Positions 39,918 through 40,162 of a stretch of DNA of 46,410 nucleotides are shown piece by piece. Source of the stretch: a virus (taxonomy: Duplodnaviria > Heunggongvirae > Uroviricota > Caudoviricetes); the IMG/VR virus record IMGVR_UViG_2721755497_000002, positions 1 to 46,410 of that record. One strand, given 5' to 3'. The first letter of the stretch is position 1. Each line of letters begins with the position of its first letter. The notes under the pieces are model-generated. The model was not told the DNA's origin. It ran no database searches and saw only the letters and a list, made by a program, of their open reading frames with translations. The position numbers and the translations under genes were made by a program.

Positions 39918-40087
39918 GAATAAACATAAAAAATACCCACAGTATTGACCAGACTGTGGGGATAACGATGAAGATTAACTTAAAGGAGTTATTTTTTCAG
40001 CCTGAATAATGTAACGCCTTAAGATTTTCCGGGCTACAGTCAGTCTCCGGAAATGTGAGGAAATTCAGGAATTTTATTCAGTCAGCA

Positions 40088-40120
40088 GACAGGCACCCTC
40101 CGGGGTGCCTGTTGTTTTTG
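40088..40120 (+). terminator. Terminator-like hairpin (ACAGGCACCCtccgGGGTGCCTGT + TGTTTTTG) in the I-J spacer
   Basis: 10-bp perfect stem, 4-nt loop, T-tract, about 45 bp upstream of J start. Confidence 0.5.
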
Positions 40121-40162
40121 TACATAAACAGATACTGATATCAGACACTAAAGGGTGACGCA

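What the first reader, a model, noticed from the sequence alone, without database searches (positions are those of the whole stretch)
39918..40162. Structured 245-bp spacer with a strong terminator-like hairpin between I and J
Within the otherwise tightly coupled tail operon, I and J are separated by a spacer containing a hairpin right after the I stop (CCCACAGTattgaccagACTGTGGG) and a 10-bp perfect stem with T-tract (about 40088-40120) about 45 bp before the J start. This could be an attenuator setting J stoichiometry, the 3' end of a small RNA, or an insertion scar.
Basis: seen in the sequence. Interest (0 to 1): 0.35.

Follow-up and report, generated by a model that had tools for sequence, protein, structure and literature searches.

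The report
Prophage small-RNA gene between tail genes
The gap between tail genes I and J holds a small regulatory RNA gene of the known PasB/EcOnc22 family on the opposite strand, followed by the terminator hairpin that many lambda-like phages carry just before gene J, so it is a new copy of known things rather than a new mechanism.

Summary
I ends at 39917 and J starts at 40163. Both hairpins sit in the 245-bp spacer, which folds far better than shuffles (z = -5.6).

The interpretation needs changing. Hairpin 1 (39936-39960) has no U tract on the + strand. On the minus strand it is followed by UAUUUUUUAU, so it is the intrinsic terminator of a roughly 76-nt minus-strand sRNA gene (40001 to 39926).

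This gene belongs to the PasB family. PasB is an 83-nt, Hfq-dependent, Northern-validated sRNA in the same I-J spacer of EPEC E2348/69. I also find the family includes EcOnc22/23/24 of EHEC Sakai (~85 nt, Hfq-bound). A covariance model built without the window's variant hits the window once (39926-40006, minus strand, 59.6 bits, E about 3e-9).

Upstream lie a TAnnnT -10 element and a near-invariant CRP-like block (40051-40077) at fixed spacing.

Hairpin 2 (40088-40113 plus T tract) is a + strand intrinsic terminator. It occupies the same position as the terminators just before J in lambda, N15, mEpX1, phiES15 and a Klebsiella phage, three of which annotate it. The sRNA cassette was inserted between the I stop and this terminator. 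Relatives carry 1-3 tandem cassettes, or a sodC-like gene, in the same slot.

Verdict: new member of a known kind. The roles of the promoter, the regulator site and hairpin 2 are inferred, not shown.

The parts
39279..39917 (+). Tail assembly gene I (left boundary of the spacer)
   Evidence: ORF list. Pfam PF06805 Lambda_tail_I, E = 1.3e-17.
39926..40001 (-). Predicted PasB/EcOnc22-family sRNA, about 76 nt: GCUGAAAAAAUAACUCCUUUAAGUUAAUCUUCAUCGUUAUCCCCACAGUCUGGUCAAUACUGUGGGUAUUUUUUAU
   Evidence: Homologous to the I-J spacer of E2348/69 that holds PasB. The PasB coordinates, probe and Northern are in PMC8550237 Table S6. The 5' end is placed by alignment to the PasB 5' end and to the start of the EcOnc22 Hfq-CRAC peak. 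A covariance model built from 18 other family members hits 39926-40006 (minus strand) at 59.6 bits, E = 3e-9, and it is the only hit in the window. Identity is 69.8% to PasB and 78.5% to the Sp15 copy.
39926..39961 (-).
   Evidence: Sequence, inverted repeat I3, minus-strand fold. All 54 distinct family RNAs, with 25 distinct hairpins, fold to -8.6 to -20.2 kcal/mol stems followed within 0-2 nt by a U run (4 or 5 U at the cut ends of two sequences, at least 6 in the rest). Stems differ by compensatory changes, such as CCCGCAG/CUGCGGG, CCCACAG/CUGUGGG and CUCCCGUAAUA/UAUUACGGGAG.
39970..39990 (-). Conserved single-stranded putative seed (UAACUCCUUUAAGUUAAUCUUC), with an anti-Shine-Dalgarno CUCCU core
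   Evidence: Apart from the terminator, this is the most conserved stretch of the RNA across variants. The Zhu et al. [quoted passage not shown] That it is a seed is inferred.
40008..40013 (-). Candidate -10 hexamer P1 (TACATT), at -12 to -7 from the predicted 5' end
   Evidence: The hexamer is TAnnnT in 66 of 66 units, 6-8 nt upstream of the position matching the PasB and EcOnc22 5' ends. No 5'-triphosphate mapping is available, so this is inferred.
40024..40029 (-). Alternative -10 hexamer P2 (GAAAAT here; TATAAT or AATAAT in most relatives), 16 nt upstream of P1
   Evidence: Hexamer counts are TATAAT 29, AATAAT 17, TATCAT 8, CATAAT 4, and others 8. If P2 is used, the mature RNA would need 5' processing. 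This is unresolved.
40051..40077 (.). Near-invariant upstream block AAATGTGAGGAAATTCAGGAATTTTAT holding a CRP-like inverted repeat (TGTGA-N6-TCAGG, centre 40061/40062, about -60.5 from the predicted 5' end)
   Evidence: It is among the most conserved stretches of the spacer in 41 spacers chosen by J homology alone. It is repeated once per unit in tandem arrays. The centre-to-P1 spacing is 48 nt in 63 of 66 units. The motif occurs once in the window against 0.11 expected at up to 2 mismatches. The identity of any regulator is inferred.
40088..40123 (+).
   Evidence: Terminator scan gives 11 pairs, 7 G-C. In relatives dG is mostly -16 to -22 kcal/mol (one variant -11.6), with C-G to U-A compensation and U.G intermediates. 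In O157-type spacers an unrelated hairpin followed by a U-rich run takes its place. Hairpin-plus-U-tract terminators sit at the same position in lambda, N15, mEpX1, phiES15 and KLB28, and are annotated as terminators in N15, mEpX1 and KLB28.
40163..43639 (+). Tail tip / host specificity gene J (right boundary of the spacer)
   Evidence: ORF list. Six Pfam J-type domains, E = 1e-25 to 1e-40.

Best explanation
The spacer is a composite of two transcription units.

(1) An sRNA 'moron' is inserted after the I stop. It is a self-contained cassette on the minus strand, made of an upstream regulatory block (40051-40077), a weak -10 element (40008-40013, or 40024-40029), a roughly 76-nt RNA (40001 to 39926) and its own intrinsic terminator, which is hairpin 1 read on the minus strand. 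The RNA belongs to the PasB/EcOnc22-24 family. In EPEC and EHEC lysogens these are abundant Hfq-dependent sRNAs made while the flanking tail genes are silent, and they form many Hfq-mediated pairs with mRNAs. The likely action, which is inferred, is trans base-pairing through the conserved single-stranded CUCCU...UUAAUCUUC region with ribosome-binding regions of host or prophage mRNAs. The cassette terminator stops the RNA 9 nt before it would run antisense into gene I.

(2) Hairpin 2 is the ancestral + strand intrinsic terminator found immediately upstream of J in many lambda-like siphophages. It most likely stops transcription that is not antiterminated from entering J in the lysogen, and Q-modified late transcription reads through it. 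This role is inferred.

Shown here: the homology, the gene anatomy, conservation and covariation of both hairpins, and the cassette's modularity. Shown in relatives by others: expression, size and Hfq dependence. Inferred: expression in this strain, the promoter choice, CRP-type control, the targets and the role of hairpin 2.
For: Homology and position:
- The window spacer aligns end to end with the E2348/69 PP6 I-J spacer.
- PasB lies there at 1466343 to 1466261 on the strand opposite I and J. It is 83 nt and has a Northern probe within the terminator.
- PasB drops in the hfq deletion (log2FC -6.8 and -2.4) and has 37 RIL-seq interactions. The flanking tail genes have base means of 5-15.

EcOnc22/23/24:
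- These are Hfq-CRAC peaks; EcOnc22 is ~85 nt on a Northern and is destabilised without hfq.
- All three map to the I-J spacers of Sp15, Sp14 and Sp11, antisense to the tail operon.
- After correcting a 137-138 nt coordinate shift between genome versions, the EcOnc22 peak starts within 1 nt of the position homologous to the PasB 5' end.

Membership and conservation:
- The covariance model built without the window variant gives a single hit at 39926-40006 (minus strand), 59.6 bits, E = 3e-9, with the A-U compensatory pair kept.
- Terminator hairpins of 54 family RNAs all fold and are followed by U runs.
- The cassette behaves as a unit. There are 1, 2 or 3 tandem copies with different seeds and terminators, each ending in the same upstream block.
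- One relative has a minus-strand sodC-like ORF in the slot instead.

Hairpin 2:
- It has canonical terminator features and compensatory variation.
- A non-homologous hairpin with a U-rich tail replaces it in O157-type spacers.
- Equivalent terminators lie just before J in lambda, N15, mEpX1, phiES15 and KLB28.
Against: - There are no transcript data for this strain or this variant, which is only 70% identical to validated PasB.
- The 5' end is transferred by alignment. It rests on RNA-seq coverage, Northern size and a CRAC peak edge, not on 5'-triphosphate mapping.
- Two conserved -10 candidates exist, and neither has a conserved -35.
- In this window the CRP-like site is weaker than in relatives (one half-site reads CCTGA on the sRNA-sense strand, against TCTGA in most relatives). 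P2 is only GAAAAT.
- No function or target of PasB/EcOnc22 has been established in the literature I could read.
- Assigning EcOnc22 to the PasB part of the spacer depends on my coordinate-shift estimate.
- Nothing here shows that hairpin 2 terminates in vivo, or what transcription it would stop. I found no convincing + strand promoter upstream of it.
Confidence: 0.8

Rival explanations
1. Hairpin 2, alone or with hairpin 1, is a + strand attenuator or mRNA-stability element. It would lower J expression relative to the upstream tail genes during lytic growth.
For: Hairpin 2 is a strong canonical + strand terminator 50 nt before J. A terminator at this junction recurs in distantly related siphophages, which would fit a role in the phage's own late expression. 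The whole spacer is highly structured as + strand RNA.
Against: Hairpin 1 has no + strand U tract, and its conservation pattern is explained by the minus-strand sRNA. Lambdoid late transcription is Q-antiterminated and reads through intrinsic terminators (established knowledge). SPN3UB manages with a 9-nt I-J spacer and no hairpin. There are no data on transcript levels across the junction.
Confidence: 0.15
2. A second, + strand small RNA ends at hairpin 2. It would be transcribed divergently from the PasB-like gene, so the spacer would encode a divergent sRNA pair.
For: Hairpin 2 with its U tract, preceded by the conserved AAUUUUAUUC, looks like an Hfq-type sRNA 3' end. The Tree et al. peak filter excluded same-strand peaks within 100 bp of a CDS, so such an RNA would have been missed in their list.
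Against: The scan found no sigma-70-like promoter on the + strand, and none showed up by eye across 41 variants. The J 5' UTR or IGR does not appear in the complete EPEC RIL-seq per-RNA table (Table S5); the interaction table (S3) was only partly searchable. In tandem arrays the conserved block belongs to each minus-strand unit, while hairpin 2 occurs once, next to J. The same terminator exists in phages with 50-60 nt spacers and no room for an sRNA.
Confidence: 0.08
3. The minus-strand RNA acts mainly in cis. It would be an antisense RNA fully complementary to the late tail mRNA at the I-J junction, triggering RNase III cleavage or interfering with late transcription.
For: The RNA is by construction perfectly complementary to about 76 nt of any I-J read-through transcript. 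Its antisense orientation is conserved in every relative examined.
Against: It overlaps neither the I coding region nor the J ribosome-binding site. PasB forms 37 Hfq-mediated interactions with other RNAs in EPEC, and the tail genes are essentially silent when it is expressed. Its seed is diversified among tandem units, which makes sense for trans targets and not for a cis target. Pairing of the seed with the J translation-initiation region is no better than background.
Confidence: 0.1
4. The spacer is non-functional leftover DNA (an insertion scar), or it hides a small protein or type I toxin gene.
For: A 13-codon ORF (ATG at 39969) preceded by a GGGGA sits opposite the sRNA. One phage record annotates a hypothetical protein in the homologous spacer (H33).
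Against: The ATG is ACG or ACA in many relatives, and the ORF's length and sequence are not conserved. Conservation is strongest in non-coding features: terminator stems with compensatory changes, the seed, the TAnnnT hexamer and the upstream block at fixed spacing. Homologues are expressed as sRNAs.
Confidence: 0.03

Closest known systems
PasB (pathogenicity-associated sRNA B) of EPEC E2348/69 prophage PP6 (Pearl Mizrahi et al. 2021, PMC8550237; Zhu, Shabalina & Storz 2026 preprint)
   Same: Same genomic slot (the I-J spacer) and the same antisense orientation. Alignable over the whole spacer. Same layout of a 5' single-stranded seed plus a 3' intrinsic terminator, and the same upstream block.
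   Different: Only 69.8% identical over the RNA. The window's RNA is 7 nt shorter at the 5' side, the terminator stem carries a compensated G-C to A-U change, and the loop is unrelated. The preprint describes PasB variants as differing by only a few nucleotides, so this variant probably lies outside what it catalogued. No expression data exist for it.
EcOnc22/EcOnc23/EcOnc24 of EHEC O157:H7 Sakai prophages Sp15/Sp14/Sp11 (Tree et al. 2014, PMC4104026, Table S2)
   Same: All three lie in I-J spacers antisense to the tail operon. EcOnc22 is ~85 nt on a Northern and needs Hfq for stability. The Sp15 copy is 78.5% identical to the window's predicted RNA.
   Different: The papers I read do not link them to PasB: Table S6 of PMC8550237 lists no EHEC homologue for PasB. 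The link made here rests on sequence homology and on my 137-nt coordinate correction. Their targets are listed as unknown.
AgvB/AsxR anti-sRNAs and HnrS (EcOnc01/02 and EcOnc10-12): other prophage 'moron' sRNAs of EHEC
   Same: They are short, Hfq-binding, terminator-ended sRNAs carried at conserved slots of lambdoid prophages, expressed from the lysogen, often multicopy, and with variable 5' regions and conserved 3' regions.
   Different: They sit in different slots (downstream of PR' and Q, or near the lysis genes) and have unrelated sequences. No Rfam family matches the I-J spacer.
The putative rho-independent terminator between the I-like and J-like genes of N15, mEpX1 (HK022-like) and Klebsiella phage KLB28; the unannotated equivalents in lambda and phiES15
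   Same: A GC-rich hairpin with a tetraloop plus a U tract on the sense strand, immediately upstream of the J start. Compare N15 GCCACC-UCCG-GGUGGC-UUUUUUU with the window's GGCACCC-UCCG-GGGUGCC-UGUUGUUUUUG.
   Different: In those phages the hairpin is essentially the whole 50-60 nt spacer and ends about 12-26 nt before J. Here it ends 50 nt before J and is preceded by the roughly 170-bp sRNA cassette. Whether the hairpins are homologous or only analogous was not established.
Morons of lambdoid phages (autonomous promoter-gene-terminator insertions such as lom, bor and prophage sodC)
   Same: An extra, autonomously expressed unit with its own terminator lies between two genes of the late operon. 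One relative has a sodC-like ORF in exactly this slot and orientation.
   Different: The cargo is a non-coding RNA. It is oriented against the operon and can be tandemly multiplied.

Membership tests
PasB / EcOnc22-24 prophage sRNA family | Located in the I-J intergenic spacer of a lambdoid prophage, transcribed antisense to the tail operon | tested here: met
   The I and J identities are confirmed. The model hit and the terminator polarity are on the minus strand. PasB and EcOnc22-24 have the same arrangement.
PasB / EcOnc22-24 prophage sRNA family | Sequence and structure homology to experimentally defined members | tested here: met
   The spacers align end to end. Identity is 69.8% to PasB and 78.5% to the Sp15 copy. 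A covariance model built from 18 members, without this variant, gives 59.6 bits and E = 3e-9 as the only hit in 46 kb.
PasB / EcOnc22-24 prophage sRNA family | [quoted passage not shown] | tested here: met
   The sequence CCCACAGU-loop-ACUGUGGG + UAUUUUUUAU folds at -12.2 kcal/mol, with the U run 2 nt after the stem.
PasB / EcOnc22-24 prophage sRNA family | Conserved single-stranded seed just upstream of the terminator | tested here: met
   AACUCCUU and UUAAUCUUC are present and lie in the best-conserved non-terminator columns. The fold leaves most of this region weakly paired.
PasB / EcOnc22-24 prophage sRNA family | Expressed as a roughly 80-85 nt RNA whose stability depends on Hfq | not testable with these tools
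   Shown only for E2348/69 PasB and Sakai EcOnc22. No transcript data exist for this window.
Rfam-curated sRNA families | A match to any Rfam 15 covariance model at the gathering score | tested here: not met
   The spacer has no gathering-level hit. The best sub-threshold hits are chance (E = 0.69 and 1.5). The E2348/69 and Sakai spacers also have none. The family is not in Rfam 15.
Intrinsic (rho-independent) terminator: hairpin 2, + strand | A GC-rich stem, a short loop and a U-rich tract immediately 3' of the stem | tested here: met
   11 pairs (7 G-C), a 4-nt loop, and UUGUUUUUGU overlapping and following the stem end. dG is -22.1 kcal/mol.
Intrinsic (rho-independent) terminator: hairpin 2, + strand | Actually releases transcripts in vivo or in vitro | not testable with these tools
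   This needs Term-seq or in vitro transcription. Only positional analogues annotated as putative terminators were found.
Class I CRP-dependent promoter (considered for the sRNA promoter) | A TGTGA-N6-TCACA site centred near -61.5 on the correct helical face, with a weak -35 | tested here: inconclusive
   The site is TGTGA-N6-TCAGG here (8 of 10 core positions) and TGTGA-N6-TCAGA in most relatives. The centre is at -60.5 relative to the aligned 5' end, with 48-nt spacing in 63 of 66 units, and there is no conserved -35. The true start site is unmapped. Relative to P2 the centre would be -44.5, which is non-canonical. The inverted repeat TGAA-N4-TTCA also resembles a Cra site. Circumstantially, PasB is higher in the non-activating condition, where CRP-repressed Spf is lower.
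Type I toxin-antitoxin or small-protein gene (considered) | A conserved small ORF with a start codon opposite the antisense RNA | tested here: not met
   The 13-codon ORF's ATG is replaced by ACG or ACA in many relatives, and the ORF's length varies.

The most novel reading that the evidence does not exclude
The I-J junction of Escherichia lambda-like prophages may be a dedicated exchangeable slot for regulatory-RNA cassettes. Each roughly 185-bp unit would carry its own sugar- or catabolite-responsive (CRP- or Cra-type) operator at a fixed distance, a diversifiable seed and a private terminator. Units would be swapped and tandemly multiplied (1-3 per junction, several junctions per genome), giving lysogens a rapidly evolving, nutrient-gated sRNA repertoire. 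The ancestral pre-J terminator would then insulate the tail-tip gene from the cassette's promoter region.
Probability: 0.3. Interest if true: 0.55.

Novelty: new member of a known kind. Interest (0 to 1): 0.33.

Why it matters
For annotation, a stretch that every record I inspected leaves blank between 'tail assembly protein' and 'host specificity protein J' holds a probable Hfq-dependent regulatory RNA. Some version of this spacer is in about 890 of 5,426 complete E. coli genomes, at a median of 4 places in each genome that has it.

For sRNA biology, the analysis adds four things:
- It ties together two independently named sets, PasB in EPEC and EcOnc22-24 in EHEC.
- It shows the family is much more diverse than near-identical BLAST hits suggest: 54 distinct RNAs and 25 distinct terminators in a small sample.
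- It shows the gene is a modular cassette that can be tandemly amplified with different seeds.
- It gives a testable regulatory hypothesis, an invariant CRP-like site at fixed spacing.

None of this changes how such systems are thought to work.

Tried and rejected
- **Rfam:** gathering and E-value searches found no family for the spacer. The best hits were chance matches to a flavivirus CRE and the L10 leader.
- **AgvB/AsxR lead:** my first idea, from memory, was that these anti-sRNAs lie between I and J. That was wrong. The paper places them downstream of PR'.
- **HnrS:** it turned out to be EcOnc10-12, a different locus.
- **Protein-seeded scan of genome contigs with the J N-terminus:** nothing was confirmed. 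The follow-up DNA-pattern scan found only E. albertii, a few tiny contigs that look like E. coli phage contamination, and two chance MAG hits.
- **RNAalifold on a MAFFT alignment of all variants:** it recovered only 3 pairs, because the divergent terminators were misaligned. I replaced it with per-sequence folding and a curated alignment.
- **Small ORF or type I toxin:** rejected because the start codon is not conserved.
- **+ strand promoter for an RNA ending at hairpin 2:** none was found by scan or by eye.
- **Promoter architectures checked by eye:** class II CRP (centre -44.5 relative to P2) and sigma-54 (TGGC motif) do not fit.
- **Trans pairing of the seed with the J ribosome-binding region:** not better than background, since 11.5% of control windows pair as well.
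- **Literature search for a described I-J terminator:** nothing relevant turned up.

Full report
**Observation.** The window is a lambda-like prophage. Its I-J region is 100% identical to mouse E. coli strains M1 and M3. Hairpin 1 (arms 39936-39943 and 39953-39960) and hairpin 2 (40088-40113, perfect 10-nt arms, 11 pairs with the flanking pair, then a T tract) are both present. As + strand RNA the spacer folds at -76.3 kcal/mol against -52.0 +/- 4.4 for shuffles (z = -5.58).

**What hairpin 1 is.** On the + strand the stem is followed by GAUAACGAUG, so it cannot terminate there. On the minus strand it reads CCCCACAGU-CUGGUCAAU-ACUGUGGG-UAUUUUUUAU, a textbook intrinsic terminator.

The spacer aligns end to end with the I-J spacer of prophage PP6 of EPEC E2348/69. 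Pearl Mizrahi et al. mapped the sRNA PasB there, on the strand opposite I and J (1466343 to 1466261, 83 nt), with a Northern probe inside that terminator. PasB is strongly Hfq dependent (log2FC -6.8 and -2.4 in the hfq deletion) and has 37 RIL-seq interactions. It is expressed while the flanking tail genes are almost silent.

**Link to EHEC.** Table S2 of Tree et al. 2014 lists EcOnc22, EcOnc23 and EcOnc24 as homologous Hfq-CRAC peaks. EcOnc22 gives a ~85-nt Northern band that is destabilised without hfq. In the current Sakai record all three fall in the I-J spacers of Sp15, Sp14 and Sp11, on the strand antisense to the tail operon, and at the same offset from J.

The published coordinates refer to an older genome version, so I estimated the shift in two ways. 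The Rfam AgvB hit against the published AgvB1 peak allows 128-146 nt. The inverted identical copies EcOnc11 and EcOnc10 give shifts that sum to 275 nt, that is 137-138 nt each; a 2026 paper confirms these copies are identical. With that shift the EcOnc22 peak begins within 1 nt of the position homologous to the PasB 5' end and runs into the terminator loop. PasB and EcOnc22-24 are therefore one family. The papers I read do not say so.

**Membership of the window's copy.** By alignment the window's RNA is 40001 to 39926 (76 nt). It is 69.8% identical to PasB, 78.5% to the Sp15 copy and 86.8% to its nearest relative among the fetched loci. A covariance model built from 18 family members, excluding this variant and its nearest relative, finds one hit in the 46-kb window: 39926-40006 on the minus strand, 59.6 bits, E about 3e-9. 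The G-C to A-U change in the stem is compensated. Rfam 15 has no model for this family.

**Anatomy from comparison.** I took 80 IMG/VR loci selected only by J similarity, plus 43 loci from a DNA-pattern scan.
- The spacer is present at every junction that could be measured (67 of the 80), at 187-715 bp and mostly 234-260 bp.
- Alignment of 41 distinct spacers and 66 distinct units shows a repeating cassette. In sRNA-sense order it is: a near-invariant block ATAAAAnTTCTGAAnnTCTTCACATTT; about 20 variable nt; a TATAAT-like hexamer (P2); CTGCGTTA containing a TAnnnT hexamer (P1) 6-8 nt before the mapped 5' end; a variable 5' region; the conserved AACUCCUU...UUAAUCUUC; and then a terminator.
- All 54 distinct RNAs end in a stable hairpin (-8.6 to -20.2 kcal/mol) followed by a U run within 0-2 nt. 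There are 25 distinct hairpins, related by compensatory changes.
- Some junctions carry two units (424-bp spacers) or three units (L050, L052, L056), with different seeds and terminators. One junction carries a minus-strand sodC-like ORF instead.
- The junction is therefore a moron slot, and the sRNA gene is a modular cassette.
- A GTDB-wide pattern scan found the block only in Escherichia, apart from apparent contaminant contigs.

**Promoter and control (inferred).**
- P1 is TAnnnT in 66 of 66 units, at the right distance from the two experimentally derived 5' ends.
- P2, 16 nt upstream, matches the -10 consensus better (TATAAT 29, AATAAT 17 of 66; GAAAAT in the window). Using it would require 5' processing to give the observed size.
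- Neither hexamer has a conserved -35.
- The invariant block contains TGTGA-N6-TCAGA (TCAGG here). This matches the CRP consensus TGTGA-N6-TCACA at 9 of 10 core positions in most relatives and 8 of 10 here.
- The block's centre is 48 nt from P1 in 63 of 66 units. That puts it at -60.5, close to the class I position of -61.5, which I cite from established knowledge.
- PasB is higher in the non-activating condition, where CRP-repressed Spf is lower. This is only circumstantial.
- Cra is an alternative reading (TGAA-N4-TTCA). I rate activator dependence as plausible but unproven.

**What hairpin 2 is.** In tandem arrays the conserved block recurs with each unit, but hairpin 2 occurs once, next to J. 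It varies by C-G to U-A with U.G intermediates. In O157-type spacers an unrelated hairpin, CCCCGGUAUC/GAUACCGGGG + UUUCUCUUU, takes its place.

The 50-60 nt I-J spacers of other siphophages consist essentially of a GC hairpin plus a U tract just before J. This holds for lambda, N15, mEpX1, phiES15 and Klebsiella phage KLB28. The N15, mEpX1 and KLB28 records annotate it as a (putative) rho-independent terminator. SPN3UB lacks it. Hairpin 2 is thus the ancestral pre-J terminator, and the sRNA cassette was inserted between the I stop and it.

Its role is inferred. It probably stops polymerase that is not antiterminated from entering J in the lysogen, and Q-modified polymerase reads through it. 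A partial attenuating or mRNA-stabilising role in lytic growth cannot be excluded.

**Rejected alternatives.**
- A small ORF opposite the sRNA loses its start codon in many relatives.
- No + strand promoter precedes hairpin 2. The complete EPEC RIL-seq per-RNA table does not list the J leader.
- The seed does not pair with the J initiation region better than background.

**Verdict.** The finding is real and is now largely explained. It is a divergent new member of a known prophage sRNA family, plus a known type of pre-J terminator. The by-products deserve modest specialist interest: the PasB = EcOnc22-24 link, wide seed and terminator diversity, tandem cassettes, and an invariant operator at fixed spacing. 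The core mechanism is not novel.

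Noticed in passing
window 5407-5458 (-), 13919-14094 (+), 19274-19478 and 19529-19737 (+), 892-978, 18244-18316 and 18327-18400 (+): The prophage carries other known RNA genes at Rfam gathering level: DicF, a sok antitoxin RNA (implying a hok/sok-type locus), two tandem STnc100 copies and three tRNAs. The Zhu et al. preprint relates STnc100 to PasD.
   Followed up: no
L045, L046, L051 (424-425 bp spacers); L050, L052, L056 (three units): These loci hold tandem arrays of two or three PasB-like cassettes in one I-J junction. Each cassette has a different seed and terminator but the same upstream block. The preprint on Pas distribution states that typically a single PasB variant is present per genome.
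   Followed up: partly
L091 (691-bp I-J spacer): Instead of an sRNA cassette, this junction holds a minus-strand ORF that I read by eye as a periplasmic Cu/Zn superoxide dismutase (SodC), with its own hairpin next to the I stop. No domain search was run. It suggests that the junction is a general moron slot.
   Followed up: no
L047, L048, L105 and relatives, between hairpin 2 and the J start; window 40131-40150 is a degenerate version: A heptamer, CAGACAT, is repeated 2-5 times between the terminator and the J ribosome-binding site. This changes the terminator-to-J distance (38-66 nt) among otherwise near-identical spacers, which could be slippage-prone.
   Followed up: no
NC_002695.2 against the coordinates in Tree et al. 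2014 Table S2: Published EcOnc coordinates are offset by about 137-138 nt from the current Sakai RefSeq record over at least 1.94-2.90 Mb. Used uncorrected, they place EcOnc22-24 on the wrong part of the spacer.
   Followed up: yes
L132 (Asaia platycodi, 546 bp), L133 (Parendozoicomonas haliclonae, 460 bp), L136 (Streptomyces flavalbus, 3408 bp): Very short contigs in assemblies of unrelated species carry E. coli lambdoid I-J sequence at 75-90% identity. This is most simply contamination of those assemblies.
   Followed up: partly
L138 (lambda NC_001416 15445-15504): Lambda's own 60-bp I-J spacer contains a -15 kcal/mol hairpin (AAACCGCC-UGCG-GGCGGUUU) followed by UGUCAUUU. The RefSeq record does not annotate it, and the simple terminator scan did not flag it.
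   Followed up: partly
window 40026-40053: A variant-specific inverted repeat, TTTCCGG...CCGGAAA (7-nt arms, 14-nt loop), overlaps the sRNA's putative promoter region. It is absent from the E2348/69-type spacer and its significance is unknown.
   Followed up: no
window 45806-45823: There is a second, 2-mismatch match to the conserved upstream block motif (AATCTGAGGATGGTCAGG). It is probably chance and I did not examine it.
   Followed up: no
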